A stretch of DNA of 52,329 nt. It comes from Escherichia virus TH53. The position numbers were made by a program, and so were the translations under genes. How positions within the stretch are numbered: the stretch's first letter is position 1; every line of letters begins with the position of its first letter. The DNA lies in sequence record MT446419.1; one strand, written 5' to 3'. Shown here piece after piece: positions 2,515 to 17,334 of this stretch. The notes beneath the pieces were generated by a model. The model searched no databases. It was not told where the DNA came from and worked only from the letters and a program-made list of their open reading frames with translations.

Positions 2515-2520
2515 TATTGA

Positions 2521-2546: not shown

Positions 2547-2611
2547 TGTTACCACAATTTAATTCCAATATTCAAGCAATATTGCTGCATGTAATATTGT
2601 TTCAATATTCG

Positions 2612-2630
2612 ACATTAGTTGGATGTGAAG
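2612..2630 (+). promoter_or_regulatory. conserved motif ACATTAGTTGGATGTGAAG, candidate phage-RNAP promoter, copy 1
   Basis: One of seven intergenic copies of a roughly 19-nt motif, all on the + strand. Confidence 0.5.
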
Positions 2631-3451: not shown

Positions 3452-3470
3452 CATTAGTTGCATGTGAATA
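3452..3470 (+). promoter_or_regulatory. variant motif CATTAGTTGCATGTGAA, copy 2
   Basis: Degenerate copy about 190 nt upstream of the first early gene at 3662. Confidence 0.35.
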
Positions 3471-3661
3471 AGACCAAATCTCTGTAAATTCTGCTGAAAT
3501 TGTGTGACAGATTTTAGAGAGATTATGTCTCCAAGCTAATCATTGTAGTTTTTCGGCACTTGCTGTGTCACATACTCCCTACAGCTTTAAGGTGGATTGA
3601 GGTAAGACAAGACCTCCACAATCGTTCTGTAGGGAGTTTTCTTTTAACTTAGGAGAATAAA

Positions 3662-3880
3662 ATGACTCGTTTTAAAGATTTGGAAGACGGTGCAATCTTC
3701 TTTACGCGTGGTGGAGAACACCTGCAAAAAGTTTTGGAAGATGATGTTAATGTAAATGCAGTATTCGTTGGTGATTCTAACATTGGTGTTTTATTAAATG
3801 ACAATGAAAGAACTTTTACTGAGGAGGAGTTTAAAGAAATCTCAGCCTCTGATTTAGTTCAAGAGCCAATTGAAGCCTAA
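3662..3880 (+). CDS. hypothetical protein (early region)
   Basis: ORF with AGGAG 7 nt upstream of ATG. Confidence 0.55.
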   Translation: MTRFKDLEDGAIFFTRGGEHLQKVLEDDVNVNAVFVGDSNIGVLLNDNERTFTEEEFKEISASDLVQEPIEA

Positions 3881-3922
3881 TGTATTGGGGGGGAGTAAAC
3901 CCTCCAAATTTGGAGAGCAGAA

Positions 3923-4159
3923 ATGAATTACGCGCTGTATCAATACATCAATCGTGACGGTGTTGTTTCACATGCTTTGGTTAATACTGTAACTAAGGCA
4001 GTAATGTTAGCTGACACGGTGATTTATGGAGAAAGAGGGCGTCTGGTTTGGAAACCTGCTGCACACCCTGAATATGTTTGGCTTGCAATTCAAAATGACA
4101 AGCACAACAAAATTGTGGCAATGGCTACTCACCCTCATTTCATTAAAGCACGAGGTTAA
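3923..4159 (+). CDS. hypothetical protein
   Basis: ORF with GGAGAG RBS; tightly packed with neighbours. Confidence 0.55.
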   Translation: MNYALYQYINRDGVVSHALVNTVTKAVMLADTVIYGERGRLVWKPAAHPEYVWLAIQNDKHNKIVAMATHPHFIKARG

Positions 4160-4161
4160 TC

Positions 4162-4350
4162 ATGGACTTCATCGTCTACTTTAAGTTAAATGGTGTAGAG
4201 CAACGTTTGTACTTCAATTCTTTACTTCGTTTGCAACAGTGGGCGGAGAAGTTTGTTGGGTATGACTTTGAATACATCAACGCATGTACACCTGACGAAC
4301 ATGAGGAAATCGTGTTCAGTTCATTAAGCCAAATTCTGGAGGCTAAATGA
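4162..4350 (+). CDS. hypothetical protein
   Basis: ORF starting 3 nt after the upstream stop; GAGG RBS. Confidence 0.5.
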   Translation: MDFIVYFKLNGVEQRLYFNSLLRLQQWAEKFVGYDFEYINACTPDEHEEIVFSSLSQILEAK

Positions 4351-4601
4351 CACAGTTTAAATTGAAGGCTGACTTAATCGAGTTGGCCTCTTATAAAGAA
4401 AAGATTGAGTTCATCCAAGAGCGTTTGGTTGTTAACTACGAAGGTTGGTGGGATATATCAACAGACGAGTTAGCCACTATTGTTAAAGAGAAGTTCGGGA
4501 TTGAGCTAACCAATAAGCAATTTCTGAATGATGTTCTTACAGACAAAATCATTAAAGAAATTACAACCAATTTCATGTCTAGCTTTGGAGAAGGTCAATG
4601 A
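4347..4601 (+). CDS. hypothetical protein
   Basis: ATGA start-stop overlap with the upstream gene; GGAGG RBS. Confidence 0.55.
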   Translation: MTQFKLKADLIELASYKEKIEFIQERLVVNYEGWWDISTDELATIVKEKFGIELTNKQFLNDVLTDKIIKEITTNFMSSFGEGQ

Positions 4602-4746
4602 AGAAGCTCAAATATATGACCAAAACGGTTACATACATGGCTATGTACGGTGCTTCAAAGCGTAGGGCTAAGAAATTGGCAAGAGCTGCAAATCCTCGTA
4701 TGCCAGCACGTAAGGTGGCTAAAATCGTTAATCTAGTCTTTGGGAA

Positions 4747-4932
4747 TTGGAGTATAAAATGAACGACCAGCAATTCAACACATTCATGCAGCAGATTAAT
4801 CATCAAGAACTGATGGATGCCATCAAAGGCAAGAAGCCAGTCGAACGTCAATATCGTAAAATTGATAATTATATGCCAACAATCATTGCGTGTGTTGGAT
4901 TCCTGATTGCTCTTTACTTCCTGGTGAAATAA
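4747..4932 (+). CDS. small membrane protein
   Basis: C-terminal hydrophobic segment PTIIACVGFLIALYFLV; GGAG RBS. Confidence 0.45.
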   Translation: MEYKMNDQQFNTFMQQINHQELMDAIKGKKPVERQYRKIDNYMPTIIACVGFLIALYFLVK

Positions 4933-5027
4933 TGTCAATTGTTAAGAAATTAGCATTCTGCGTTTTAATGTTCCCTCTAGTGCTGCTCGTTGTGGGCAGC
5001 TTCATGTACTTAAACTAAGGTAATTAA

Positions 5028-5336
5028 ATGGCTTCTTTACTCGAATTCTCAAATATTGCAAATGTTGCTAAGAATTCTATTCCGGAAAATTCGGATGTAG
5101 TTGCATACATGCGTGTTGATGTAAGTTTGTTGGCCTTTGTAATGGACCACATCAACCTCGTTGAGGAGCAGTTGTCTCAAGCCAATGAAACAATTGACAC
5201 TCTTCGTGAACTTCGTACAGCAGAGCAAAGTGCTTACGATGAACTGATGGAGCAAAAGAACAAGCTCCAGGAGCAACTGGCAGACGCACTTCAACAAATT
5301 GAAGACATGAAGCCACCAGCAAAACCAACCGAATAA
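5028..5336 (+). CDS. hypothetical coiled-coil protein
   Basis: ORF with AAGG RBS; C-terminal half rich in E/Q/L heptads. Confidence 0.5.
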   Translation: MASLLEFSNIANVAKNSIPENSDVVAYMRVDVSLLAFVMDHINLVEEQLSQANETIDTLRELRTAEQSAYDELMEQKNKLQEQLADALQQIEDMKPPAKPTE

Positions 5337-5354
5337 TCAAACTTAGGAGTTATT

Positions 5355-5615
5355 ATGGCTACTAGAACAGGCATGATGATTGTCCCAAGCCGTAATAACT
5401 CTTTAAGCGGCTTTACACCATATAAAATCTACGAAGTGATTTCTGGCACTGGTGAAGCAAACCTGTCAGAAGTTGCTTTGAAGTTGGGCCGTATGGTCCA
5501 CTCCGAAATCTCCTGTAACGTAGTTGATGATGAAGGTAAAATCCGTTTTGTAACAATGGATTTCTTTCGTGAATTTAACCTCAAATCTGAATTAGGAGTT
5601 CTGTACCATGAATGA
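5355..5615 (+). CDS. hypothetical protein
   Basis: AGGAG RBS 6 nt upstream of ATG. Confidence 0.55.
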   Translation: MATRTGMMIVPSRNNSLSGFTPYKIYEVISGTGEANLSEVALKLGRMVHSEISCNVVDDEGKIRFVTMDFFREFNLKSELGVLYHE

Positions 5616-5790
5616 GGATGATGTTGTTTGCCCAAAGTGTGGCAGCAATAACGTAGACCATGTAACACACGAAGCAGTGGGAATGTATGGTCCCGTAGTT
5701 CTGGACAGTGCATTCTGTGTAGATTGTGGTTTAAACATTTATCGTGGAAAACTTATAGACAATAGTGGGAATATCCCGCCAAAAGGATAA
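5608..5790 (+). CDS. zinc-ribbon protein
   Basis: Two CxxC pairs (CPKCG ... CVDCG). Confidence 0.5.
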   Translation: MNEDDVVCPKCGSNNVDHVTHEAVGMYGPVVLDSAFCVDCGLNIYRGKLIDNSGNIPPKG

Positions 5791-5792
5791 TC

Positions 5793-6020
5793 ATGAAATT
5801 TAAATGTGTTGCTTCAACCAAAGATTATGTTCCAGTTGGCTTCATCGTTGAAGGTGAAGCTATATCACCTTTGGAATTTAAAGTGACCAAATCGGCTGAG
5901 GATGTTTCTCCAGCATTTCGTAAAGGTGCTGTCGTTCCTATGAATGGTGCATTCTGGACATGGCAGCGTGACCATGAAGCAGAATTTGCAGATATTTGTG
6001 AACAAGGTTTATTACAATGA
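5793..6020 (+). CDS. hypothetical protein, paralog A
   Basis: Starts MKFKCVASTKDY; shares the KFKCV-ST N-terminus and a W-x-W pattern with the next ORF. Confidence 0.5.
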   Translation: MKFKCVASTKDYVPVGFIVEGEAISPLEFKVTKSAEDVSPAFRKGAVVPMNGAFWTWQRDHEAEFADICEQGLLQ

Positions 6021-6247
6021 CAAAGTTTAAATGTGTGAAATCGACCTCTTCATCTGAGTATTCTCCGAAGGTTGGAGATATTATTGAGGGAGAGCTTGTA
6101 ACTATTAAAGACGAGGATGGAGTGCAGACTCGCATAAACATCACAGAAGACAGTGACCGCAGAACTTCCTATGGCGCCCCATATTGGTCTGCGGGAGAGA
6201 GCGTTCCCTTGGAAGGTAGTGTCTGGTACTGGGAAGAAATTGAATAA
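6017..6247 (+). CDS. hypothetical protein, paralog B
   Basis: Starts MTKFKCVKSTSS; ATGA overlap with paralog A. Confidence 0.5.
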   Translation: MTKFKCVKSTSSSEYSPKVGDIIEGELVTIKDEDGVQTRINITEDSDRRTSYGAPYWSAGESVPLEGSVWYWEEIE

Positions 6248-6310
6248 TTTCCTCAACCACTTTTGTAATGAGAGTGGTTGCTGAATATTATTAATTAACT
6301 TGGAGAATTT

Positions 6311-6601
6311 ATGAAACAGCGTACTCGTTTACAACGTGACCCAGCCACAGGTCGCTTGTTACCAGCATATTTGAAGGTTGGTGACTTAGTTTACACTCGT
6401 GACTTTGCTTTTGACATTTGCCCAAGCAAAGCGTATGAAGTTCTTGCCACCAGCTTGTCTGGTCCTAAAGTGATATTTGGTGCTCTTGAGCCAATCCAGT
6501 TAACCGGAACTCAGTTTGTCATCAAAGATGAATCTGGTTGCAATCGCATCTTCAATCTTGAAGGTGGTTTATCCAAATGGGAGAAGGTGAAGCGTGGGTA
6601 A
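6311..6601 (+). CDS. hypothetical protein
   Basis: GGAG RBS 7 nt upstream. Confidence 0.5.
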   Translation: MKQRTRLQRDPATGRLLPAYLKVGDLVYTRDFAFDICPSKAYEVLATSLSGPKVIFGALEPIQLTGTQFVIKDESGCNRIFNLEGGLSKWEKVKRG

Positions 6602-6827
6602 GAATTATATCGAAATATTTAAGCAACTGACCATCAATGGGCAGGAGTTCTTACTAAACGATGCAAGGCAAGATATAGAGCTGTCTGATAAATACAGCTC
6701 ATCGTATCAGAGAACTGTTGTAAAATGGACGTTCTCTTACATATCCTACAATCTTCCAGGAGAAACGCTTGTGATTAGTGGTTCTGGAGATTCCGTATTA
6801 TCCGCTTTGGAGAAACTAAAGCAATGA
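6594..6827 (+). CDS. hypothetical protein (GTG start)
   Basis: ORF overlapping the end of the upstream gene; start codon uncertain. Confidence 0.4.
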   Translation: MGKNYIEIFKQLTINGQEFLLNDARQDIELSDKYSSSYQRTVVKWTFSYISYNLPGETLVISGSGDSVLSALEKLKQ

Positions 6828-7111
6828 ACAAGAATTCAGTCTTACGTTATGTTGGTAAAACAAACTACAACTTTACTAACGGTAAGAAATACAAAATCGT
6901 CGCAGGTCGTGGTGACGGGGTTCCTCGCAACAACGGTACACTCGGTGCGTATATTCAATCTCCTTTGGGTTTTGTCGTTAATGATGATAACCGCAATTTA
7001 TGTTATCGTACATTCTCCGATAATTGGGAACTTGTGAAAGATTCTGGTGAGGTCAGTTGGTATAAACCTGAATCGAACATGGACCCAATTCCGATTTCAA
7101 AGGTGATGTAA
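6824..7111 (+). CDS. hypothetical protein
   Basis: ATGA overlap with the upstream gene. Confidence 0.5.
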   Translation: MNKNSVLRYVGKTNYNFTNGKKYKIVAGRGDGVPRNNGTLGAYIQSPLGFVVNDDNRNLCYRTFSDNWELVKDSGEVSWYKPESNMDPIPISKVM

Positions 7112-7311
7112 TGATTGTAGATACACATTTGTATAGCCACAAAAGCTACAGTCCTACTGGAGTTCCTGCTGGATGGACTTTGTGGTTTGTTGAAGTGGAT
7201 GACAACCCATACTGGCACAATGTTGAGTGCAAATTCCTTCCAGTGAAGCCGACCAAAAAGCAAATACGCAAATTGCGTAGAAAGTTTATAAACGATTGCA
7301 AGTCCTGTTAA
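7111..7311 (+). CDS. hypothetical protein
   Basis: AAGGTGA RBS; translationally coupled. Confidence 0.45.
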   Translation: MIVDTHLYSHKSYSPTGVPAGWTLWFVEVDDNPYWHNVECKFLPVKPTKKQIRKLRRKFINDCKSC

Positions 7312-7351
7312 ATTAACAAGGAGCATTCATTGAGTGTTCCTGATTAATCTA

Positions 7352-7370
7352 ACATTAGTTGGATTTGAAG
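7352..7370 (+). promoter_or_regulatory. motif ACATTAGTTGGATTTGAAG, copy 3
   Basis: Ends 74 nt upstream of the ATG at 7444, the same spacing as the copy before 13357. Confidence 0.55.
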
Positions 7371-7443
7371 AGGGACAAAGCTATTCCGTGGTTAGCAATG
7401 TCACTGAAACTTAAACTGTAATTAACTTAAGAGAATCTTAATC

Positions 7444-7818
7444 ATGGCACAATATTCAGATGTAAACACTGGCATCATCGGTCCTAACGGCTTCAAGAAA
7501 GACCCAAAACATCCTGACATTCGTGGACGTATTAACGTTGACGGAATCTGGTATTGGGTATCTGGCTGGAACAAGCAAGCAAATGGTAATGAGTTTACCT
7601 CACTTGCATTAACCATCATGACCCAAGAACAGGTCGATGAAATGATGCGTAAGCGTGAAGAGAAGGCTAAAGCCAAAGCTCAACCTCAAGCTGCCGCTCA
7701 ACAGCAACAGCAACGCCAGCAGCCTTCTGCACAACAGCAAGCACCTGCTCAGCAACAGCAGCAGAGCAACTACAACCCGAACGAGCCGAAAGACTTCGAC
7801 GACGACATTCCGTTCTAA
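7444..7818 (+). CDS. protein with E. coli SSB-type C-terminal tail (DFDDDIPF), possible ssDNA-binding protein or SSB-tail mimic
   Basis: Seen: C-terminus PKDFDDDIPF preceded by a Q/A-rich linker. Established: DFDDDIPF is the E. coli SSB C-terminal tip that recruits SSB-interacting proteins. Inference: the N-terminal 70 aa may be a small OB-like domain. Confidence 0.6.
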   Translation: MAQYSDVNTGIIGPNGFKKDPKHPDIRGRINVDGIWYWVSGWNKQANGNEFTSLALTIMTQEQVDEMMRKREEKAKAKAQPQAAAQQQQQRQQPSAQQQAPAQQQQQSNYNPNEPKDFDDDIPF

Positions 7819-7939
7819 TGGAGATGCCCTATGAAAATTTTATGTTTTATAGGGCTACATAATTGGGAGATTTCTCATACAAACGATTATGTAACCTTTT
7901 GGGTATGCAAGAACTGTTCAACAATGCGTGAGGAATATC

Positions 7940-8629
7940 ATGGCAAATAAATTTGTCGAAATACCTGCCAATTTGGTAAAGCCCGGTGATGTATTGATTT
8001 ACGGCAACAGGGAATACCGGATTGAAAACATACTCCGGTTTAGTAATGCAGTTCAGTTGCAATATTCTGGTGGGTACTACAATTTTGAATTTGGCCGCAT
8101 AGTCAAAGTGCTCGACAGGCCACCAGCTTTGGAAACTCCAACAGCAACATTCAACACCCAGATAACACCAGTATTTCTCCCTTATGGTGAAGCAGTGAAG
8201 CCATTCTCAGATGAAGAGGATGTTAAAGGCGCTGATGTAGAGGTTGGCGATGTTATTTGGTACAAGGGCAATTGGGCAACTGTTACAAACGTCTACAAGC
8301 ATCCAAACTCGCCATACAATAAAGTCAATATTGACCATGATGATGTAAAAGGTCTGCAAGTACGCCTGACATTATCTGGAACTTATTCGAGAAAGGTAAA
8401 AGCAATAATGGAAACATTAAATATTCAAAATGCAATCGAAGCACAACGTATTCTTCTGCAAAAGCTGGAGCAAATGCTCGATTTAACCCAGCTTCCACCA
8501 ACAGAAGATGGCAAGATTGCAATTGGCAACTGTAATATTCGCGTGGACAAGGCAACAGTTGTTAAAGCCGCACGCGATGAAATGAAAGCTGCCGCAAGCA
8601 AATCCGCAGAGCTTATCAAGAAGCTGTAA
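7940..8629 (+). CDS. hypothetical protein
   Basis: ORF in track from 7928; ATG at 7940 has GAGGA upstream. Confidence 0.55.
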   Translation: MANKFVEIPANLVKPGDVLIYGNREYRIENILRFSNAVQLQYSGGYYNFEFGRIVKVLDRPPALETPTATFNTQITPVFLPYGEAVKPFSDEEDVKGADVEVGDVIWYKGNWATVTNVYKHPNSPYNKVNIDHDDVKGLQVRLTLSGTYSRKVKAIMETLNIQNAIEAQRILLQKLEQMLDLTQLPPTEDGKIAIGNCNIRVDKATVVKAARDEMKAAASKSAELIKKL

Positions 8630-8817
8630 TTAACAGAGGTCATTCCACTTCGAGTGGCCTCGATTAATTATTGGAGGATTTATGTGGGATATTTATCTTG
8701 AAGGTGTTGACGAGCCAATTTCAACACTTAATACACAATTTATTATGGTTGGGTGTGCAATTCTTTATAAAGGTAAGTTACACACTGTATCTAAAATAGT
8801 TCAGAGGCATTAATTCC

Positions 8818-9168
8818 GTGAAAACTTTATACATTGCACTAACAATCCTGTTCGGAGTATTCGCATTTAAATCGGAAGCGTCTGTTCGAAACTTCCAGTG
8901 TGGCGGATACAAAATGTCCGTTGAAACAATTACAATGAGCCAGCCACTCATTGCAACAATTTCTTTGCACGAGGGTACTTGGATTGAGATTCCGGACAAT
9001 GGAAATCCTAACCCAATGTCCACAGTGTTCTATAACACACAGAGCAGTAAGCTGGCTTTAGTTGGTGTTGACGCTGAGGAACGTTTAGTGCTACAGATTT
9101 ATCGTGACATTGACTTCTTTCATGCCAAATTCCCACTGTTATCAACATATTGTAAGGAAGTTAAATGA
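8818..9168 (+). CDS. secreted or periplasmic protein with N-terminal signal peptide (GTG start)
   Basis: N-terminus MKTLYIALTILFGVFAFKSEA looks like a Sec signal peptide with an AFK-SEA cleavage region. Confidence 0.45.
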   Translation: MKTLYIALTILFGVFAFKSEASVRNFQCGGYKMSVETITMSQPLIATISLHEGTWIEIPDNGNPNPMSTVFYNTQSSKLALVGVDAEERLVLQIYRDIDFFHAKFPLLSTYCKEVK

Positions 9169-9398
9169 CGTCATCCGAATTTACCATTGATGGAGTACCG
9201 TACTTACTTGAATCCAGTTGCGAATATCGTCACTGGTCAGTAATTCGCGACCGAGTAGTTAAATTCTTGGAGCGAGTGGGGAAAGATGCGGCTATTCTGA
9301 CTACAGCCACAGTAGAAGGAACAACCGAAATCAATCGGGAGCTTGTATCTTTTAAATTAACCATCAACCCAACAGGAAATCCATTCCGTGAAAGTTGA
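9165..9398 (+). CDS. hypothetical protein
   Basis: AAGGAAG RBS; ATGA overlap. Confidence 0.5.
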   Translation: MTSSEFTIDGVPYLLESSCEYRHWSVIRDRVVKFLERVGKDAAILTTATVEGTTEINRELVSFKLTINPTGNPFRES

Positions 9399-9657
9399 AG
9401 AACTAGCTGACCATCTTGAGGCAGCAAAACAAGAGCTTGCAACTCACTCAGAACGTGTTGAAACACTGAAAGGGCAAGGTTCAACAGCCGAAGAAATCCA
9501 GCTATTTACAGATAATATCTGGTTTTCAATGAATCGTGCACAGTTTATTCAGATTCAGGAAGACCGCCTTGCTGAATTGGAAAAGCGTGTTAAAACACTT
9601 GAGAACTTGCTCGTAACATTGCAAGAAACTTTGGACCAGGAGCTGAAAAATGTCTAA
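9388..9657 (+). CDS. hypothetical coiled-coil protein (GTG start)
   Basis: Charged heptad-rich ORF. Confidence 0.4.
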   Translation: MKVEELADHLEAAKQELATHSERVETLKGQGSTAEEIQLFTDNIWFSMNRAQFIQIQEDRLAELEKRVKTLENLLVTLQETLDQELKNV

Positions 9658-10048
9658 TGTTAAGCTGGGCCAACGTTCTCTTGACCGATTAAAGGGCGTA
9701 AACCCTTCATTGGTGGCAGTTTTCAAGCGTGCATGTGAAACAATGCCGTTTGACGTGACTGTTCTTGAAGGATTGCGCACTTATGAGCGTCAACAAGAGC
9801 TTTTAAAGCAGGGTGCAACCAAAGTTTCAGTTAGCCGACACATGTCAGGCAATGCTTTAGACATTGCACCATACCCAATTGACTGGAATGACCTCGAACG
9901 ATTCCAAATTGTAGCTGAACATATGTTCAAAGCCGCAGAAGAGCTTGGAATTGTCATTCGTTGGGGCGGAACATGGGAGCGTTCATTCACTAAGCCAGTG
10001 AAATGGGCTAAATTCCTAGACGCACCACACTTCGAACTTCCAGCATAA
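9650..10048 (+). CDS. peptidase M15 family (VanY / L-alanyl-D-glutamate peptidase-like) muralytic enzyme
   Basis: Seen: SRHMSGNALD (SxHxxGxAxD zinc-binding signature) and DAPHFEL (second His). No signal peptide. Confidence 0.75.
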   Translation: MSNVKLGQRSLDRLKGVNPSLVAVFKRACETMPFDVTVLEGLRTYERQQELLKQGATKVSVSRHMSGNALDIAPYPIDWNDLERFQIVAEHMFKAAEELGIVIRWGGTWERSFTKPVKWAKFLDAPHFELPA

Positions 10049-10068
10049 CTTCATCAATGGAGCATCCG

Positions 10069-10347
10069 ATGAATTACGAAGATATCCCAAGAGAGTTGAA
10101 TGCACTGGAGTCAAGAACCATCCGTGCAGAGAATATTCTCCACCAGCACCTATCAATTAACGTAGATGATGAAAAGAGGATGCGGTACACTATGGAACTT
10201 GACGATGTAGTCTACACTGTCAGTTACAACGAGAAGGCTGCTATCCTCAGTGCACTTATCAAAGGCGGGAATGAGCGAATCAATCAACTTAAGATTCTGG
10301 ACACAGAATTGAGAGGTACTTGGGAGAAACTAAATGCAAAACGATAG
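10069..10347 (+). CDS. hypothetical protein
   Basis: ORF in track from 10057; ATG at 10069 has the better GGAG spacing. Confidence 0.45.
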   Translation: MNYEDIPRELNALESRTIRAENILHQHLSINVDDEKRMRYTMELDDVVYTVSYNEKAAILSALIKGGNERINQLKILDTELRGTWEKLNAKR

Positions 10348-10882
10348 CATTGCTCAAGCAGTAGAACAGCTTAAGTCCTGGCGTAGAGATGAAACCTTAT
10401 TGGTTCGTTTCTACACAGGCGAAACTAATTCTGAATTTGTAGATGCGTGGATTGATGGCCTGTCTTGGCGTCACTATGATTTCAACATGCGAGATTATTT
10501 GCATGAAGAGTACGGCATTGAATACCCAGAAGACGGTACATATGACGTAATTGAATCAAACGAAGAAGATGTTACCGAAGTTTGCTTTGCCAATGGGCTA
10601 TTCAGCATTCGTAAATATGATAAGTTCAATGAGCTGCTTGTTGACACCGATTTGGATGTAATTCTTGCAGCATTCCGCAGTGGTGAGATTGATATTTTCA
10701 CTGTGGATGATTTGAACGACATGTTCATCACACGTTGCGACTCAATTACAGAATATTTGAAGCAAAGTGAGGCACTGGATATTCCAGACCGCCTTGCACC
10801 ATATATTGATTGGGATGCAATCACCAGAGATTATGGAAGTGACTACATTTTCTCTGAGGGAATATTATTCTTAAATGCGTGA
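10334..10882 (+). CDS. highly acidic protein (candidate DNA mimic)
   Basis: Seen: very high D/E content across 182 aa. DNA-mimic function is inference. Confidence 0.5.
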   Translation: MQNDSIAQAVEQLKSWRRDETLLVRFYTGETNSEFVDAWIDGLSWRHYDFNMRDYLHEEYGIEYPEDGTYDVIESNEEDVTEVCFANGLFSIRKYDKFNELLVDTDLDVILAAFRSGEIDIFTVDDLNDMFITRCDSITEYLKQSEALDIPDRLAPYIDWDAITRDYGSDYIFSEGILFLNA

Positions 10883-11114
10883 TTTAAATATTGCTGAACT
10901 TGAGGCTGGATTGATTGTTCACCACCAGCCTAGAAACACTTTCTATCGTATTCTTGGGCCTACAAAGATTAAAACTCACTGCGGAAGTTGGGTGGATGGG
11001 TTTGCTTACCAGGAAGTGAAGAAGTACGGGGACCATACTTTCTTGAGTATTGACTCTTCTACTATCTACACACGACCGAAAGAGCTATTTGACTCAGATT
11101 GGAAAACACTATAG
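10875..11114 (+). CDS. hypothetical protein
   Basis: ORF with weak RBS. Confidence 0.4.
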   Translation: MRDLNIAELEAGLIVHHQPRNTFYRILGPTKIKTHCGSWVDGFAYQEVKKYGDHTFLSIDSSTIYTRPKELFDSDWKTL

Positions 11115-11183
11115 TTCCAGGCGGGTTTCTTCGAAGTGCCAAGCGGGTTTTGTGCTCGCATTGGCCTTCGGCTTTAGTCTGAA

Positions 11184-11200
11184 ACATTAGTGGGATTTGG
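11184..11200 (+). promoter_or_regulatory. motif ACATTAGTGGGATTTGG, copy 4
   Basis: Preceded by TCTGAA as in copies 5 and 6. Confidence 0.45.
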
Positions 11201-11324
11201 TTCTGGCCACTTAGGGAAGAAAGGCATTATACACTTATCGCCAAATGGGTGTCAAGCATTTTCTTCATTTATTTTAATTTATTCTTATTATTCTTTTTGT
11301 TTGGAATATTGGAATAATTCTGAA

Positions 11325-11343
11325 ACATTAGTTGGAATTGAAG
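11325..11343 (+). promoter_or_regulatory. motif ACATTAGTTGGAATTGAAG, copy 5
   Basis: Tandem with copy 4, about 140 nt downstream, separated by an AT-rich stretch. Confidence 0.5.
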
Positions 11344-11979
11344 AAACAACATCAGATAATAACTTTGTAACTCGGTAGACCGTTGCGGCCGCATCGTGTG
11401 AGAATGTTCGACTCATTCTACAAAGTTATTTTCGATGGAATGTTTCCATCATATACATTTATCTTTTAACATAGGCCATAGGGCCGGAATACTTCTTCGC
11501 AGAAAAGCTATTCACTTGTTATAGGCGATGTATTGGGATGAATTGGAACTAAATAAGCAAGCTGTTAGGGCTGAATAATTAGAGGGTCATGCCTCATGCT
11601 TATGTTAGTCATTCGAAAATAGGTTTGTGCCACAAGCTGCTGGTGCTCTGAGGAAGTCGGACAAACAGGGCTTAGAGTGGCATAATCCGCACAAAACCGC
11701 GCCACCAGCTATGCCAAAGCAGGTGGATTGGGTGAATGTATTGGGAAGGGTTGCAAAGCCTCTGTGACACGCCTGAGCCACAAGGCGACGACACTCATGT
11801 GATTAGCGTATCGCACCCTAACGGGAGCAACCCTTCACCAATGCAGTTATCCAGAATTGACACAAACGGTAGGCAGTGGCCCGATTTTCGGCCTTCCTGC
11901 GCTACTCTGTGGCCTGTTTCCTGGGCCAAAAGATGAGAAGAGAAGTCACAAACATCGAATCGAAAATTGGAGAGTTCCT

Positions 11980-12270
11980 ATGATTCGCAAACATTCTATC
12001 CGGGTCATTAAGGCCCGCAATATTCACACAGGAGAGATGGAAGCATTTGCTTTCTTGGGTGGAAGGTTTTATTTATTTGGTTGGGAAGGAAGCAATTCAA
12101 AGTTTGCATTCTTTATGAATATGTATTCGATTAAAGAGTTGTTAAACAATGCGACCTACAACCCATCTTTCATGGAATATTGTTTCGGCAAGCCAGTCGA
12201 ACATCTTCTATCCAAATCCTTCATTTACAGCTGGACAACAGACCAGCCAATGTACGGAGTTCCATTTTGA
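11980..12270 (+). CDS. hypothetical protein
   Basis: ATG with GGAGAG 5 nt upstream; the track ORF extends to 11857 but that start lacks an RBS. Confidence 0.45.
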   Translation: MIRKHSIRVIKARNIHTGEMEAFAFLGGRFYLFGWEGSNSKFAFFMNMYSIKELLNNATYNPSFMEYCFGKPVEHLLSKSFIYSWTTDQPMYGVPF

Positions 12271-12557
12271 ACTTACAAGACAAATCTAAAGAAGAGTTGA
12301 TTGAGATTATCCAGAAAGAGCACGAACTCGCTGGCATCACGATTAACTTTGAACTCCAGGCAATGCAAGCTGTTGCTTTGGGGCATGGTCTAATGGCTAC
12401 ACTCATTCATGCCAAGAATGTGTTAGGCGTTGACAACGAAAAATACCAAATTCTGGAGAAAGCTGCGCAAGAGCGGATTTCGCAGTGCTTGGTGACATTA
12501 GTTGATTTGGGAATCGACGCAGAAACTGCGAACAAACGTATCCTACAAGGCCACTAA
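12267..12557 (+). CDS. hypothetical protein (TTG start; alternative ATG at 12180)
   Basis: GGAG 7 nt upstream of TTG overlapping the upstream stop; start uncertain. Confidence 0.35.
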   Translation: MNLQDKSKEELIEIIQKEHELAGITINFELQAMQAVALGHGLMATLIHAKNVLGVDNEKYQILEKAAQERISQCLVTLVDLGIDAETANKRILQGH

Positions 12558-12558
12558 A

Positions 12559-13233
12559 ATGTCTTATCATGATGATGACAAAGAGATTGCACTATCAACG
12601 TGTAAGCAATGGCTCAATGATAATGATGCCGTCTATCTTGCCAAGGAAGATGTTATCATTATGTGGGTCCATTTTAATCCAGAATCGAAGCGCGGTGAGT
12701 GGCAACGCTACAAGATGAAAGAGGCTTGTCGCATAATTAAAGCCACACGCGCTGGCTTCTCTGCTATGAAGTACATCAAGCCAGAGATGCTAATGCTTGC
12801 TGCACAGGAAGAAGAACGTGCATATAAGCAAGCTGTTAAATCTCGTTCAACTGTTCCTCCAGAGTTCTTTAATTTGGAGCGCGCTGGACACTTCAACAAT
12901 TTAGAAATGTTGACACTGTGCCTGTTGCAAGAATTAGTTGGAAGGGGTCAAAACATTGAAGCTGTTTGTCTTGGAGAACTCATGAAAGAGTTGTTCTCGG
13001 CAAAGGGCTTTGCTGTACCAAATCGAACTTTACGCTGGAAATTGTTGCGAGCAGTCGCGCAAGAAGCTGGTGTAGTTGTTCGTGACAGAACTAACCGACT
13101 TACCGTAACAGGAGTTGGGCGTTTTGTAGCAATCCAGATTGAGGGTTATGACGAATCAATCATCACTGAACTCACTGTCGCTGAGACAAAGGATTTAGTA
13201 AATAAAACACTGGAACGATTCAATAGGTATTGA
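12559..13233 (+). CDS. hypothetical protein
   Basis: First ATG after the upstream stop; no motif recognised. Confidence 0.5.
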   Translation: MSYHDDDKEIALSTCKQWLNDNDAVYLAKEDVIIMWVHFNPESKRGEWQRYKMKEACRIIKATRAGFSAMKYIKPEMLMLAAQEEERAYKQAVKSRSTVPPEFFNLERAGHFNNLEMLTLCLLQELVGRGQNIEAVCLGELMKELFSAKGFAVPNRTLRWKLLRAVAQEAGVVVRDRTNRLTVTGVGRFVAIQIEGYDESIITELTVAETKDLVNKTLERFNRY

Positions 13234-13262
13234 GTCGTTTGACGAATCAGAGCAGTTCTGAA

Positions 13263-13283
13263 ACATTAGTTGGATGTGGAAAG
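13263..13283 (+). promoter_or_regulatory. motif ACATTAGTTGGATGTGGAAAG, copy 6
   Basis: Ends 74 nt upstream of the ATG at 13357. Confidence 0.55.
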
Positions 13284-13356
13284 AGAAAGGCTCTTTAATT
13301 TTATCTAAGTCACGTCACCGTGGCGTGCAAAACTATTCAATATAAGGTATATACAA

Positions 13357-13695
13357 ATGGCTAAGATTGTAACCGTAACTCAGTACGAAGCTAACGATGG
13401 TTCCCTGTTCCTGACCGAAGCAGAGTGTAATGCACACGACTTCAAACTGGAAAACGGTGCTAAAATTGAGAAAGCTGCCGAAGCGTACCTGAACACCGTT
13501 GGTGCTATCGACCGTTCTCGCTCCATGCAGAAGAACACCATCGAGCAGTTCCTGGCATTCTACCTGCCGTGGGTTGAAGCTGGTGAGCCGGAAGTTGAGC
13601 GTACTAAGTTCGATACTCCGAAAGAAGCTAAAGTTGCTGACGCAAGTGTTGCCGAAGCTGCCGAAGCTGCGGTTGAAGAAGCTCCGGTATTCTAA
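13357..13695 (+). CDS. acidic, alanine-rich protein
   Basis: Strong RBS, own promoter-like motif, acidic C-terminal tail ending in F. Confidence 0.6.
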   Translation: MAKIVTVTQYEANDGSLFLTEAECNAHDFKLENGAKIEKAAEAYLNTVGAIDRSRSMQKNTIEQFLAFYLPWVEAGEPEVERTKFDTPKEAKVADASVAEAAEAAVEEAPVF

Positions 13696-14851
13696 GTTGC
13701 CGACGGCAAACTTGAGAGACTAAGCTAAATCGATCTGGCATGCACTGGAAGTTTTCCGGTGCTGCCTTGAACCCATTCTGAAAGGAAGAGTGGGCTTCAA
13801 TGAGCATTCTTGTGATTAGAGTTGGGAGGTAGGCCGATGCCCAATCTCGTGGCCCAGACAAGAGTGTTCATTGAAGTTATTTCAATATGGATGTACAGTG
13901 GAATGAGAAGCTTCTCCGATAAGAGGAGTGAAAGTAGCTGGAGGACATGCCCACAGAACTGACCGAGACCCATTACAGTAGTAGCGATTCACTACCGCGA
14001 AACAGTATTGAAATTGGCAACGGTTCATGCGGAAGGGCATCGGTGAAATCTACGTTCAGTACGCGTGGTGAAATGAAGGAGTAGTGTCCTGAGAATTAAC
14101 CCTGTCTGGTTGAATGCCAGAGTCCATATTGAAGTAGTTTTCTGAGTCTTACGACGGGCCTAAACTGCCTGGAGTTATTGCGACTGTTTTATTCATTTAA
14201 AATAAATGCAAATGATTCTGAAATGCGAGTTGCGGCTTAATTAAATTTAAGTCCTCTCCGTGGTCTTCCAATCCCACGTAACCAAATTTGGCGCATTGTG
14301 GCTTCGAGATGTGATTAATAAATCGGAGCAATAATTAATTTGTATTCTGCGATGCAATGCAGGCTTAAGTCCCTCAGTGCGCGTGGGGATGTGACAGAGT
14401 ACAAACTTAATTATGCAGTTGGATATTTCTAGAGGACGGACGAGCACACTGGAATGTCTTCAATTGGTTTAGTGTGAGAAGCTATGCCAATTTGAAACGT
14501 AACTCCTTGAGGAAGTGCTCCTCTGGATTTCCCTCCACACAGGAATCTCAAGCCTGTGGCAGCGACTTCGAAGCTGCACTGCGTAACCTAATTCACCCTA
14601 AAGTGAGTTGCCCTGAGCATGGAAATAAACTGCTCTAACCGATGGTATCTACAAAGGTAGATTAAATCAGGTTGCCTGTTGGTACTTGGGTTCAACACCT
14701 GCTTGCACTCGCAAAGTAGTGCCTCGTACCTGAGATGAAGTGAGTCGGGACCATCAATCCCACGTTATGTCAAAACACAGTAGGCGACTCACGGATTCTA
14801 CAAGCCTCGCAGTTCGGGAAAACCTGCGTTACCAAAACCCTCCTATTCTTT

Positions 14852-14944
14852 GGACGAGTAGCTCAGAAGGTCTGCTCCAGAGCTTAGTCAGGTAGAGCAA
14901 TCTGTTCGACAGATGTGTCGTTGGTTCGAATCCAACCTCGTCCA
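14852..14944 (+). tRNA. tRNA-like element: canonical acceptor stem and T-arm, non-canonical D/anticodon region
   Basis: Seen: acceptor GGACGAG / CTCGTCC, T-arm GTTGG-TTCGAAT-CCAAC, D-arm halves GCTCAG and GGTAGAGC separated by about 24 extra nt, hairpin TCTGT-TCG-ACAGA. I could not fold a standard anticodon arm; isotype undetermined. Confidence 0.5.
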
Positions 14945-15122
14945 CCCACTTTCAACAATAACATGGAGTCCTCATGGACATTGATGCACTAGACAATTTG
15001 GACTTCGGTGCTGCCGAAGAAGCAATTGAAGAACTCAAAAAGAAGCAGGACGAAGAAGCAATCGTTCCTGGAGAAGGCGATAACGATTGTACAAGTGGTG
15101 CATGCGCCATCTAAGGTGAATC

Positions 15123-15359
15123 ATGCAACAGCTTAAATCAATAGTTCTTGGCGTCCTGACTGCATTTGGTATTCTTATTGCAGTGTTCCTCAAAGGCAAA
15201 AGCTCAGGCAAAGCCGAGGAGCGTCAGGAAGCCACAGAGAAGCAACTAGATTCATTAAAAGAATCTATCGAGATTAAATCGCATGTTCAGAAAGAAGTGT
15301 CTAGCAGTTCTGATAGCAATGTCGATAGTGAGTTGCTCTCAAAGTGGGTTCGTAAGTGA
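15123..15359 (+). CDS. i-spanin-like protein (Rz-like)
   Basis: N-terminal TM segment IVLGVLTAFGILIAVFL followed by a charged coiled-coil region; the next gene is embedded in another frame. Confidence 0.55.
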   Translation: MQQLKSIVLGVLTAFGILIAVFLKGKSSGKAEERQEATEKQLDSLKESIEIKSHVQKEVSSSSDSNVDSELLSKWVRK

Positions 15360-15492
15360 TTATTGCTTAATTGCACAACCAATCTATTTGGATGTTGCAG
15401 AAGTGAAAATCTTATCGCGCGAAACCAAAACACAGATTTTAGTCCACAATGAAACGTGGGCACAAAAGTGTTCGAAACTTACCCGACAGTGA
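15283..15492 (+). CDS. o-spanin-like lipoprotein (Rz1-like)
   Basis: Signal peptide with lipobox IVSC (MFRKKCLAVLIAMSIVSC); starts inside the i-spanin ORF in the +1 frame and runs past its stop. Confidence 0.55.
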   Translation: MFRKKCLAVLIAMSIVSCSQSGFVSDYCLIAQPIYLDVAEVKILSRETKTQILVHNETWAQKCSKLTRQ

Positions 15493-16396
15493 GTTGAACA
15501 TGGCCTAGCTAGTTGGTGGTGTAAAAGACTGACCAAGGTGACGACAGCCAAACAAATGCTCGCCATCGCATGAACAACATTTGGCAGTCCGGTACGGGAC
15601 TTTAAATACACGTACATTATAGTCGAGGGGGTGCGCGACTTTAAATAACGAGACTCTAGCCACTTGTGGTATAGCAGGTGTAATTCCTGCAATTGCTCTG
15701 GGCATAACAATTGAAATTGCTGCCTCGTATTGAACGCGAGAAAGTTCAGGTAGTCACTTCCTAGAACAGTGGCCGGGAACAGACCTAGACAAAAGTGCTT
15801 GAGAACGTTAGCTCTGTCTTGCCAGCATTAATGGCACGTTGGCCGCGTAAAGGCCACAGCGTCTGACCAACGTATCGGTCGCCAAATTCAATGGATTCGT
15901 AGAGTTAATTAAACCTGCACGATGGGATAGGGATGTAGCATCCGAGGCCGACTGTGTAATTGTGAACTTATCGTTCGCCGAATCCGCCAATTTACCTCAA
16001 CAGTTATGCCTCTGTTCAAAAGGCTCAAGAGAGCGTCTGGCATACCGTAGCGATACGGCTTAGTTGCGCTGATTGTGTTGTGCAGAAAGAAAGTTCAGGC
16101 TTTCGTTTGGGTTACTCCTCATCCCGAAGTTAGCTGGATTCAAAATCCAGACTATGTTCCTATACACATGAAATATGCAAGTCGAGGGTTCTTAATGTTC
16201 AAACATGATGCGAGCATTAAGCGGGTTTATACTTTTCCCCGATGGTCCCCATAAACAAGGCTGATTCACTTGGGCGGTTCGAATCAAATTTAATAAGTGT
16301 CTTGGCCGCAGTGGAAACATCATTTAAGCCAATGTATTGTAATGTTCGTAATAGTCCACGTCAGGACACTTACTTAAATTTTAACCGGAGAGAAAC

Positions 16397-16627
16397 ATGA
16401 AAACTGCTGAAATTGCCGAAGAGATTTATAAGGCCGTAATAGCCAGTCAAATTACCAGTGAAGTCCTGCACATGGATATTGAAGAAGTTCGCAATGCCTT
16501 TGGCGGTTTTGCAATCTTGTCAATAGAAGCTGCGGAAGCACTGACAAACACGTACAATCAACGCGAATATGAAAAGCGTTCTGTACTAAATGCGTCGCTA
16601 AAAGAAATTCAGGCGTCATTAAAATAA
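16397..16627 (+). CDS. hypothetical protein
   Basis: RBS context AACCGGAGAG, repeated before the next gene. Confidence 0.5.
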   Translation: MKTAEIAEEIYKAVIASQITSEVLHMDIEEVRNAFGGFAILSIEAAEALTNTYNQREYEKRSVLNASLKEIQASLK

Positions 16628-16683
16628 TACCATTATCATGGTGCGGAGCTAATTTATCTCCCACCATATGAACCGGAGAGCAA

Positions 16684-17334
16684 ATGATTACTGCAACACT
16701 CGTTGACCACATGGGCAGCGACCTCACAACTGTTAATGCTGCACGAGCCTCTTATGGTGCAGAGTCCCACGAGATGACATTGCGCGACGAGAAGCTGATT
16801 GAATTTCTCGCAAAGCATAAGCACAATACACCTTTTGCCCACGCGTATGTAACACTACGTTGTACAGCACCAATCTTTATTGCGCGGCAGCTTGGCAAAC
16901 ATCAAGTTGGTTTTCGCTGGAATGAAGTTAGCCGTCGTTACAAAGATGGCGAAGCAATCGAAATTGAATGCTTTGTACCTGATGTGGTGTTTGGTCGTCC
17001 TGAAAAGTTGATGACTCAGACTGCACAACCATTGCCACAGGATTTTGCTGACGATATTCACTATCGCATGGAAATCCACAACAAGGCTTGCATTGCAGAG
17101 TATGAAACACTAATTGGTTTGGGGATTGCTCCAGAACAAGCTCGAATGGTGTTGCCACAATCTATGATGACTACATGGATTTGGACTGGTTCTCTGCTGG
17201 GCTGGGCCAATATGTACAAGCAACGCTCTACAGAGCACGCCCAATATGAGGCACGTTTGTTTGCAGAAGAAGTTAATAAAATTATGTCAGAGTTGTTTCC
17301 TGTTTGCTGGGAGGCACTCATTAAACAGGAATAA
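16684..17334 (+). CDS. ThyX-like protein (flavin-dependent thymidylate synthase family) with divergent signature
   Basis: Seen: KHQVGFRWNEVSRRY where ThyX has RHR-x7/8-S-xRY; ThyX-like N-terminal VNAARASYG and C-terminal TTWIWTGSL...HAQYEARLFAEEV. Confidence 0.6.
   Translation: MITATLVDHMGSDLTTVNAARASYGAESHEMTLRDEKLIEFLAKHKHNTPFAHAYVTLRCTAPIFIARQLGKHQVGFRWNEVSRRYKDGEAIEIECFVPDVVFGRPEKLMTQTAQPLPQDFADDIHYRMEIHNKACIAEYETLIGLGIAPEQARMVLPQSMMTTWIWTGSLLGWANMYKQRSTEHAQYEARLFAEEVNKIMSELFPVCWEALIKQE

What the first reader, a model, noticed from the sequence alone, without database searches (positions are those of the whole stretch)
10334..10882. Strongly acidic early proteins as candidate DNA mimics or anti-restriction factors
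The 182-aa protein is extremely D/E-rich, and the 112-aa protein at 13357-13695 is acidic, Ala-rich and has its own promoter-like motif and strong RBS. Both sit in the early region where Ocr/ArdA-type inhibitors are usually encoded.
Basis: inference. Interest (0 to 1): 0.45.

Follow-up and report, generated by a model that had tools for sequence, protein, structure and literature searches.

The report
Phage ArdA-like anti-restriction gene, already annotated
The very acidic 182-residue protein is a divergent member of the known ArdA family of DNA-mimicking proteins that block bacterial type I restriction enzymes, and relatives of this phage already carry that label, whereas the second acidic protein (112 residues) shows no sign of being a DNA mimic.

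Summary
The window is a coliphage genome of the family Chaseviridae (genus Carltongylesvirus; relatives include ST32 and phiEcoM-GJ1).

**ORF 10334-10882 (182 aa).** The ORF is real and is the most acidic ORF on the coding strand: 22.5% D+E, net charge -27, pI 4.05. It is a divergent ArdA homologue.
- It falls below Pfam's ArdA threshold (18 bits against 27).
- A profile of the phage family matches canonical ArdA proteins at 99.3% probability (E 3e-20).
- The residues of the ArdA dimer core (Y-I-D, L, D) and the VF-type motif are conserved.
- The negative charge is kept in homologues with only 20-35% identity.
- Orthologues have been annotated "antirestriction protein" since 2008, and I found no experimental test of them.

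**ORF 13357-13695 (112 aa).** It is acidic and Ala-rich as described. It has no family, fold or sequence link to any DNA mimic. Most of its acidity lies in a hypervariable disordered tail that ends in a near-invariant Phe. It has the strongest codon bias in the window, above the major head protein, and sits in its own promoter-hairpin unit. It is highly conserved across the family. Its function is unknown.

The parts
10334..10882 (+). ArdA-like anti-restriction gene (182 aa, pI 4.05, net charge -27). The predicted three-domain layout has an extra N-terminal helix (aa 2-13), domain 1 at about aa 14-76, domain 2 at about aa 77-117 and domain 3 at about aa 118-182.
10769..10813 (+). Codons 146-160 (EALDIPDRLAPYIDW). 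They are the counterpart of the ArdA 'anti-restriction motif', which forms the dimer interface (Tn916 ArdA residues 126-140).
   Evidence: mapping: L134->L154, Y137->Y157, I138->I158, D139->D159, V130->I150, E129->D149. D159 is invariant and L154, Y157 and I158 are at least 90% conserved in alignment A1. The motif is defined in PMC2731889.
10862..10870 (+). Codons 177-179 (I-L-F). They are the counterpart of the essential ArdA VF motif in the last beta-strand of domain 3.
   Evidence: F179 and G176 are invariant in A1. They align to the G-x-V-F-R consensus of canonical ArdA.
10057..10347 (+). Upstream ORF (96 aa) whose end overlaps the ArdA-like start by 14 nt. It diverges as fast as the ArdA-like gene and its function is unknown.
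   Evidence: 35% identity to the Faunus orthologue. No family hit.
10875..11114 (+). Downstream ORF (79 aa) that overlaps the ArdA-like stop codon by 8 nt. It is the last gene of the unit.
   Evidence: phrog_2652, unknown function.
7352..7367 (+). Nearest upstream copy of the promoter-like motif, about 3 kb before the ArdA-like gene. No room for a promoter exists between the hairpin at 8636-8661 and the first ribosome-binding site of the 8682-11114 gene string.
13357..13695 (+). 112-aa gene. It has a beta-hairpin plus two long helices (aa 21-48 and 52-74). A disordered Ala/Glu-rich tail follows (23 aa after the FDTPK motif; pLDDT below 50 for aa 91-112) and ends in Phe.
   Evidence: Strongest codon bias in the window (Fop 0.817, ENC 31.2).
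13263..13278 (+). Promoter-like motif ACATTAGTTGGATGTG, 79 nt upstream of the 112-aa gene's ATG.
   Evidence: The equivalent site is annotated as a phiEcoM-GJ1-type promoter in phage SA91KD.
13690..13766 (+). Two hairpins directly after the 112-aa gene (13690-13718 and 13737-13766). They are candidate terminators or processing sites.
   Evidence: MFE -49.8 kcal/mol for 13690-13830, z -3.4. A terminator is annotated at the equivalent place in SA91KD.

Best explanation
ORF 10334-10882 encodes a divergent ArdA-family protein. By analogy with Tn916 ArdA, it would fold into three small domains arranged in a row and dimerise through the conserved L-x-x-Y-I-D segment of domain 3. It would then present rows of Asp/Glu carboxylates that imitate the phosphate backbone of bent B-DNA. 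This dimer would occupy the DNA-binding groove of the host's type I restriction-modification enzymes (the HsdS/HsdM core with HsdR), so the incoming unmodified phage genome, which carries many type I target sites, is neither cut nor methylated. What is shown here: homology, predicted fold, conserved motifs, conserved charge, synteny across Chaseviridae, and fast divergence. What is inferred: dimerisation, a DNA-like charge geometry, type I enzymes as the target, and the timing of expression. The second gene (13357-13695) is not part of this mechanism. It encodes an abundant, highly conserved small protein with a helical core and a disordered acidic tail ending in Phe. That tail most likely serves as a docking element for a partner protein. 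The partner is unknown.
For: - **Composition:** 22.5% D+E, net charge -27, pI 4.05.
- **Family label:** PHROG 14321 'anti-restriction protein', E 1.7e-50.
- **Bridge to ArdA:** a profile built only from Chaseviridae sequences found 73 representatives among 1.84 billion. Of 59 aligned sequences (the window protein, four close relatives and 54 of those representatives), 50 match Pfam ArdA PF07275, best E 1.9e-31.
- **Intermediate sequences:** P0049, P0140, P0141, P0143 and P0144 (30-42% identical to the query) pass the Pfam threshold on their own.
- **Profile against profile:** the phage family against 22 canonical ArdA proteins gives 99.3%, E 3.2e-20 and 146 columns, covering query 32-183 and template 15-166.
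- **Solved structure by sequence:** the extended profile hits ArdA 2W82 at E 7e-7 over residues 17-171.
- **Key residues:** Tn916 Y137, I138, D139, D146, L134 and V130 map to Y157, I158, D159, D166, L154 and I150. Four of the seven acidic residues that span the interface are kept. Residue roles are from PMC2731889.
- **Charge conservation:** net charge -15 to -33 and pI 4.05-4.58 in 25 homologues down to about 20% identity.
- **Synteny and divergence:** the gene is syntenic in Erwinia phage Faunus and another contig of about 54 kb. It is 35% identical to Faunus, while neighbouring genes are 52-82% identical, as expected for a gene that interacts with the host.
- **Exposure to restriction:** the genome carries type I sites: EcoR124I 16, EcoBI 10, EcoAI 6, EcoKI 2.
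Against: - The protein fails Pfam's own ArdA gathering score (18.0 against 27 bits).
- It gives no NCBIfam hit.
- phmmer against PDB sequences and Foldseek against PDB did not find ArdA.
- Domain 1 and the N-terminal helix are specific to this family, and three of the seven interface acidic residues are replaced (R134, S137, S145).
- The canonical set A4 was chosen from weak hits of the phage profile, so the profile-profile test is not fully independent.
- Dimer formation and the geometry of the surface charges were not modelled.
- The gene lies about 10 kb from the window start and about 3 kb from the nearest promoter-like motif, in one unit with SSB and endolysin. It is therefore not placed like T7 ocr, the first gene to enter the cell.
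- No experiment on any orthologue was found.
- A phage ArdA-like protein with a different target (EndoV) is on record (PMC13091555).
Confidence: 0.7

Rival explanations
1. The 182-aa protein has the ArdA fold and acts as a DNA mimic, but its main target is another DNA-binding host factor, not a type I restriction enzyme. Candidates are BREX PglX, a repair nuclease, RecBCD or a nucleoid protein.
For: DNA mimics vary in target. Ocr also blocks BREX (PMC7261183). The ArdA-like gp119 of a Campylobacter phage inhibits endonuclease V (PMC13091555). ArdA proteins can alter host gene expression (PMC13300388). Domain 1 of this family is unlike canonical ArdA, and three interface acidic residues are changed.
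Against: Domain 3 overlaps the type I target sequence in the ArdA/M.EcoKI model, and it is the best conserved part here. Canonical ArdA proteins inhibited type I systems but not BREX or EcoPI. The phage has no reported modified bases that would need a repair inhibitor (PMC12842549).
Confidence: 0.2
2. The 112-aa protein (13357-13695) is also a DNA mimic or anti-restriction factor.
For: It has pI 4.49 and net charge -10, a monocistronic unit with its own promoter-like motif and very strong codon bias. That would suit a stoichiometric inhibitor needed in large amounts, as T7 Ocr is (own knowledge). Acidic disordered tails can compete with DNA for binding surfaces, as in T7 gp2.5 (PMC10359462).
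Against: It matches no family, PDB sequence or specific fold. The folded part carries only about -5 net charge. The remaining negative charge is in a tail of 23-36 aa with no conserved sequence except the terminal Phe. It is 77% identical between coliphage and Erwinia phage, whereas the ArdA-like gene is 35% identical, which is atypical for counter-defence genes.
Confidence: 0.07
3. The 112-aa protein is an abundant core protein of phage DNA metabolism or host takeover. Its acidic tail with a C-terminal Phe docks onto a partner in the manner of the tails of E. coli SSB or of T7 gp2.5 and gp4. The partner could be the phage polymerase or helicase. Alternatively the tail could act as a decoy for host proteins that bind SSB.
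For: The tail is disordered. It is variable in sequence but constant in composition (net -3 to -9, about 29% Ala), and 84 of 88 homologues end in Phe. The phage has a T7-like replication set and an SSB ending in DFDDDIPF. The gene shows high conservation and the strongest codon bias in the window. The T7 gp2.5 tail mediates replisome contacts (PMC10359462).
Against: The tip is P-[VLM]-F, not the I-P-F of SSB. The N-terminal domain is a helical hairpin, not an OB fold. No homology to any replication protein was found. The argument rests on analogy only.
Confidence: 0.2
4. The acidity of the 182-aa protein is incidental, and the protein has no role in counter-defence.
For: Small acidic proteins are common in this window. 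The 'antirestriction' label has only been copied between records since 2008, and orthologues are also named 'tail fiber protein' and 'replication inhibitor protein'.
Against: ArdA homology, fold and motifs are all present. The charge is conserved through 65-80% sequence divergence.
Confidence: 0.05

Closest known systems
ArdA (Pfam PF07275); structure of Tn916 Orf18 ArdA, PDB 2W82
   Different: Below Pfam's gathering score. It has an extra N-terminal helix and a family-specific, Trp-rich domain 1 (W16, W39, W45). Three of seven interface acidic residues are replaced. It is encoded by a virulent myovirus, not a conjugative plasmid or transposon, and lies mid-way through a long gene string, not in a leading region.
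Ocr (gp0.3) of phage T7
   Same: A phage-encoded, very acidic protein expected to act as a dimeric DNA mimic against type I enzymes. The host phage likewise has a single-subunit RNA polymerase.
gp119 of Campylobacter phage NCTC 12673 (ArdA-like EndoV inhibitor)
   Same: A lytic-phage protein with ArdA-like domains 2-3 and a very low pI (PMC13091555).
   Different: gp119 aligns only to the C-terminal ~100 residues of ArdA, and it serves a phage whose DNA contains deoxyinosine. No base modification is reported for Chaseviridae.
sArdN / sArdC small ArdA proteins
   Same: They show that single ArdA domains and divergent ArdA relatives retain anti-type I activity (PMC12548430).
   Different: They are about one third of ArdA's length, whereas the protein here is full length with all three domains.
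Acidic C-terminal tails of E. coli SSB and T7 gp2.5 (comparison for the 112-aa protein only)
   Same: A disordered acidic tail that ends in Phe. The phage's own SSB ends in DFDDDIPF.
   Different: The 112-aa protein has no OB fold. Its tip is P-[VLM]-F. No binding data exist.

Membership tests
ArdA (PF07275) | Scores above Pfam's gathering threshold for PF07275 | tested here: not met
   18.0 bits against a cut-off of 27, E 0.0046, residues 49-171. Orthologues P0049, P0140, P0141, P0143 and P0144 do pass, at 31.5-37.3 bits.
ArdA (PF07275) | Homology to canonical ArdA over all three domains | tested here: met
   hhalign of A1 against A4: 99.3%, E 3.2e-20, 146 columns. 21 of 22 A4 members match PF07275 at E <= 1e-5. 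The A2 profile hits 2w82 at E 7e-7 over residues 17-171.
ArdA (PF07275) | Elongated fold of three small domains in a row, as in PDB 2W82 | tested here: met
ArdA (PF07275) | 'Anti-restriction motif' at the dimer interface (Tn916 residues 126-140, with essential Y137 and I138) | tested here: met
   Y157-I158-D159, L154, I150 and D166 align to Y137-I138-D139, L134, V130 and D146. D159 is invariant and the others are at least 90% conserved in the family.
ArdA (PF07275) | Essential VF motif in the last beta-strand of domain 3 | tested here: met
   Window I177-L178-F179. F179 and G176 are invariant, and they align to the G-x-V-F consensus.
ArdA (PF07275) | Strongly negative protein (pI about 4) with acidic residues conserved across the dimer interface | tested here: met
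   Net charge -27, pI 4.05. Four of seven interface acidic positions are kept. Charge is conserved in 25 homologues.
ArdA (PF07275) | Surface carboxylates arranged helically so as to superimpose on B-DNA phosphates | not testable with these tools
ArdA (PF07275) | Homodimer in solution | not tested
ArdA (PF07275) | Relieves type I restriction in vivo and binds the type I methyltransferase core | not testable with these tools
   This needs an experiment. No published test of any Chaseviridae orthologue was found.
Ocr (T7 gp0.3) | Sequence or fold similarity to Ocr | tested here: not met
Folded DNA-mimic proteins in general (for the 112-aa protein) | A folded domain with a dense, ordered acidic surface | tested here: not met
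   The folded part (aa 1-89) has net charge of about -5. About half of the net negative charge lies in a tail of 23 aa, most of which (aa 91-112) has pLDDT below 50.
SSB-type C-terminal tail (for the 112-aa protein) | Disordered acidic linker ending in the D-D-D-I-P-F type tip | tested here: inconclusive
   An acidic disordered tail and a terminal Phe are present in 84 of 88 homologues, but the tip is P-[VLM]-F. The phage SSB itself has DFDDDIPF.

The most novel reading that the evidence does not exclude
The 112-aa protein is a previously unrecognised, very abundant core factor of Chaseviridae. Its hypervariable acidic tail with an invariant C-terminal Phe would work as a docking or decoy element. 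It could either tie the phage's T7-like replisome together or soak up host proteins that normally bind the SSB tail. It would then be a new kind of small takeover protein, not an Ocr/ArdA-type mimic.
Probability: 0.15. Interest if true: 0.55.

Novelty: already known. Interest (0 to 1): 0.27.

Why it matters
It confirms on independent grounds (profile, fold, motifs, charge conservation) that the "antirestriction protein" label is justified. That label has been copied through Carltongylesvirus and other Chaseviridae records since phiEcoM-GJ1, and the competing labels "tail fiber protein" and "replication inhibitor protein" are wrong. These phages are being proposed for therapy and biocontrol, so a working ArdA would help explain their broad host range across E. 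coli strains with different type I systems. It would also be an easy target for a plating test. The 112-aa gene is the more open question. A phage-family-wide small protein with stronger codon bias than the major head protein and no known function deserves an experiment.

Tried and rejected
**Searches that did not find ArdA for the 182-aa protein**
- Single-sequence phmmer against PDB sequences gave only chance-level hits to archaeal primase PriL.
- The profile of close relatives (A1) against PDB gave ArdA only at E 0.015, tied with PriL.
- NCBIfam gave no hit for either protein.

**Searches on the 112-aa protein**
- The profile against PDB sequences gave no hit.
- Pfam on 25 members gave only noise.

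**Context and literature**
- The sigma-70 promoter scan of 1-17000 gave 33 sites against 35 expected, so it is uninformative.
- I looked for a promoter between the hairpin at 8636-8661 and the next gene, but the 20-nt gap leaves no room.
- There are no terminal repeats inside the window, so the physical genome ends, and therefore the order of DNA entry, could not be fixed.
- The phiEcoM-GJ1 genome paper (PMC2223254) and the Y2 paper (PMC3165370) are not held.
- No paper links Carltongylesvirus to EcoKI or to any anti-defence assay.
- I considered that the window might be phage Mangalitsa, which has the same length of 52,329 bp. Identity there is only 91%. The best match is EcoM1 at 95.5%.

Full report
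**What the window is**

Nucleotide searches place the window in the coliphage genus Carltongylesvirus (family Chaseviridae). Over 1-25000 it is 95.5% identical to phage EcoM1 and 94-95% identical to ST32, Bp7 and SA91KD. The region 9000-14000 also has weaker matches in Yersinia, Erwinia and Pectobacterium phages. These are virulent myoviruses with a T7-like single-subunit RNA polymerase and unidirectional transcription (PMC12842549; PMC6989608). In the window the polymerase gene is at 333-2273 (phrog_414). A block of small ORFs follows, and the annotated relatives have primase/helicase and DNA polymerase genes next, here ORFs 17335-21101. Both genes of the finding lie in the small-ORF block.

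**Checking the observation**

- *The 182-aa ORF.* ORF 10334-10882 encodes 182 aa with 24 Asp, 17 Glu, 4 Lys and 10 Arg. That gives 22.5% acidic residues, net charge -27 and pI 4.05. This is the lowest pI among 78 ATG-started + strand ORFs of at least 70 aa.
- *The 112-aa ORF.* ORF 13357-13695 encodes 112 aa with 18.8% D+E, 17.9% Ala, net charge -10 and pI 4.49. It is acidic, but four other small ORFs in the window have pI 4.1-4.6.
- *The promoter-like motif.* ACATTAGTKGRAWNTG occurs 11 times, always on the + strand, where 1.08 copies are expected and no shuffle out of 100 reached 11. One copy sits at 13263-13278, 79 nt before the ATG. The equivalent site is annotated as a "phiEcoM-GJ1-type promoter" in SA91KD. 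The ICTV profile, however, states that the promoters of this family have not been identified.
- *The ribosome-binding site.* It is TAAGGT, 9 nt upstream of the ATG.
- *Verdict.* The sequence-level observations hold. "Early region" is a statement about position only.

**The 182-aa protein is a divergent ArdA**

*Direct tests are weak.*
- Pfam ArdA scores 18 bits, below the cut-off of 27.
- NCBIfam gives nothing.
- phmmer against PDB sequences gives nothing relevant.
- PHROG 14321, labelled "anti-restriction protein", matches end to end at E 1.7e-50. Orthologues are annotated "antirestriction protein" in ST32, phiEcoM-GJ1, SA91KD, EcoM1, Bp7, Mangalitsa and others.

*I tested whether that label is deserved.*
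- A profile of 16 Chaseviridae sequences (A1) was searched against 1.84 billion representatives and gave 73 hits.
- I aligned 59 sequences: the window protein, four close relatives and 54 of those representatives (A2). Fifty of them match PF07275 on their own, best E 1.9e-31.
- The bridging sequences at 30-42% identity (P0049, P0140, P0141, P0143, P0144) pass Pfam's threshold.
- The phage-only profile A1, compared with 22 canonical ArdA proteins (21 of which match PF07275 at E <= 1e-5), gave 99.3% probability, E 3.2e-20 and 146 aligned columns. These cover query 32-183 and template 15-166, which is all three ArdA domains.
- The extended profile hits the solved Tn916 ArdA (2W82) at E 7e-7 over residues 17-171.

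*The predicted structure agrees.*
- The AlphaFold model has pLDDT 83.9 and pTM 0.72.
- Its secondary structure reads as an extra N-terminal helix, then three strands with helices, then a helical middle, then a strand-and-helix C-terminal domain.
- ArdA is a row of three loosely packed domains (PMC2731889). Aligning 134 residues therefore implies the same linear arrangement.
- Foldseek missed the match.

*Residues that matter in ArdA are present.* PMC2731889 places the "anti-restriction motif" (Tn916 residues 126-140) at the dimer interface. In that account L127, L134 and Y137 give the bulk of the contacts, Y137 and I138 are essential, and Y137 bonds to D139 and D146. An essential VF motif lies in the last strand.
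- In the hhalign alignment these map to L154, Y157, I158, D159 and D166. V130 maps to I150.
- Within the phage family D159 is invariant and the others are at least 90% conserved.
- The C-terminus G176-I-L-F179 aligns with the canonical G-x-V-F, and G176 and F179 are invariant.
- Of the seven acidic residues that carry the charge pattern across the interface, four are kept (D136, E140, E146, D149). Three are not (R134, S137, S145).

*The charge is under selection.* In 25 homologues, down to about 20% identity, net charge stays between -15 and -33 and pI between 4.05 and 4.58.

**Context and evolution of the ArdA-like gene**

- The gene sits in a tight string of overlapping ORFs, 8682-11114. It overlaps its upstream neighbour by 14 nt and its downstream neighbour by 8 nt.
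- The string starts 20 nt after a terminator-like hairpin at 8636-8661. The nearest promoter-like motif is at 7352, before the SSB gene.
- The gene is therefore probably co-transcribed with the SSB gene and the endolysin gene (9650-10048, Peptidase_M15_4). That position resembles T7's middle class more than that of ocr.
- The same order (endolysin, small ORF, ArdA-like, small ORF, a non-coding gap of about 1 kb..., a gene of 223-225 aa, then the 112-aa homologue) is found in Erwinia phage Faunus and in another contig of about 54 kb.
- Against Faunus, the ArdA-like protein and its upstream neighbour are about 35% identical. The endolysin is 75% identical, the 224-aa protein 82%, the 112-aa protein 77% and the SSB 54%.
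- Fast divergence with conserved charge and motifs is what one expects of a protein that tracks variable host enzymes.
- The genome carries ordinary numbers of most type I sites: EcoR124I 16, EcoBI 10, EcoAI 6. It has only 2 EcoKI sites where 8.2 +/- 2.5 are expected.

**Mechanism proposed for the ArdA-like protein**

- *Shown here:* family membership at the profile and fold level, the motifs, and the charge.
- *Inferred:* the dimer, the geometry of the charges, the target and the timing.
- *On the BREX test:* canonical ArdA proteins blocked type I systems but not BREX or EcoPI, unlike Ocr (PMC10149784).
- *On other targets:* an ArdA-like protein of a Campylobacter phage inhibits endonuclease V (PMC13091555), and domain 1 here is family-specific. 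A different or additional target therefore cannot be excluded.
- *On published tests:* I found no experimental work on any orthologue. One recent paper says that little is known about defences acting on Chaseviridae.

**The 112-aa protein is not a recognisable DNA mimic**

- *Homology.* It matches only phrog_17419 (unknown function). It has no Pfam, NCBIfam or PDB sequence hit, even with a 25-member profile. Its 88 homologues, where contigs are long enough to tell, lie mostly on contigs of 49-55 kb.
- *Tail.* Across homologues residues 1-89 are well conserved, with net charge about -5. The tail is 23-36 aa long and has no conserved sequence. Its composition is constant (about 29% Ala, net -3 to -9), and 84 of 88 sequences end in Phe, usually as P-[VLM]-F.
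- *Analogy.* That design recalls the acidic tails of E. coli SSB and of T7 gp2.5, which recruit partner proteins (PMC10359462). The phage's own SSB-like protein (7444-7818) ends in DFDDDIPF.
- *Expression signals.* The gene has the strongest codon bias in the window. Fop is 0.817, using my own list of E. coli optimal codons, and ENC is 31.2. The major head protein has 0.784 and 36.1, the tail sheath 0.70 and 38.7, and the ArdA-like gene 0.474 and 45.5. All Leu codons are CTG, all Pro CCG and all Gly GGT.
- *Transcription unit.* With its own promoter-like motif and two downstream hairpins (z -3.4), it looks like a monocistronic, very highly expressed unit.
- *Reading.* Together with its high conservation, this points to an abundant core factor whose tail docks on a partner. 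Which partner is unknown. The DNA-mimic reading rests on composition alone.

**Verdict**

What this work adds is an independent justification of that label. It also shows that the alternative labels in GenBank are unfounded: "tail fiber protein" in MLP1 and "replication inhibitor protein" in Pel53. That gene is nevertheless the more interesting unknown.

Noticed in passing
window 13357-13695: The 112-aa gene has the strongest codon bias of any ORF in the window (ENC 31.2, Fop 0.817), above the major head protein. It is 77% identical to its Erwinia phage orthologue. Its hypervariable acidic tail ends in a near-invariant Phe. Its function is unknown.
   Followed up: partly
window 249, 2612, 3451, 7352, 11184, 11325, 12495, 13263, 21326, 26702, 41210 (+ strand): The 16-nt motif ACATTAGTKGRAWNTG occurs 11 times, all on the coding strand and mostly in intergenic gaps, where 1.08 copies are expected. 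It is probably the promoter of the phage RNA polymerase, which the ICTV profile says has not been identified. One copy lies upstream of the polymerase gene itself.
   Followed up: partly
window 11115-11980: A stretch of about 860 bp has no conserved ORF. It begins with two tandem copies of the motif flanking an AT-rich run (11255-11310). Short patches are 85-92% identical to Erwinia phage Faunus, although the neighbouring ArdA-like gene shows no nucleotide similarity. The layout recalls the T7 primary replication origin with its two tandem promoters (own knowledge). It could be an origin or a non-coding RNA. Rfam finds nothing there.
   Followed up: partly
window 7444-7818: The 124-aa SSB-like protein has a Gln-rich linker and ends in DFDDDIPF. 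From memory, this is the same tip as the host E. coli SSB tail, which suggests it engages the host's SSB-binding proteins.
   Followed up: no
whole window: EcoKI sites (AACNNNNNNGTGC) are depleted: 2 observed against 8.2 +/- 2.5 expected. Other type I sites occur at about the expected numbers, and EcoR124I sites are somewhat over-represented (16 against 10).
   Followed up: partly
window 3662-3880, 5028-5336, 6017-6247: These are further small acidic ORFs of unknown function, closer to the polymerase gene. The 72-aa one has 23.6% D+E and pI 4.14, so it is proportionally more acidic than the ArdA-like protein.
   Followed up: no
window 14881-14936: A tRNA-like match lies just below Rfam's threshold (27.9 against 29 bits), and ARAGORN calls no tRNA. 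One relative (phage flopper) is reported to have one tRNA.
   Followed up: no
L004 (PP952070.1 27770-28327) and protein P0009: Orthologues of the ArdA-like gene carry inconsistent names: 'replication inhibitor protein' in Pel53 and 'tail fiber protein' in MLP1. Pel53 is recorded as a Staphylococcus hyicus phage, yet it is 89% identical over this region to this coliphage. The recorded host looks doubtful.
   Followed up: partly
window 10057-10347: The 96-aa ORF that overlaps the ArdA-like start diverges just as fast (35% identity to Faunus) and has no family hit. It could be a second host-interaction gene in the same cassette.
   Followed up: no
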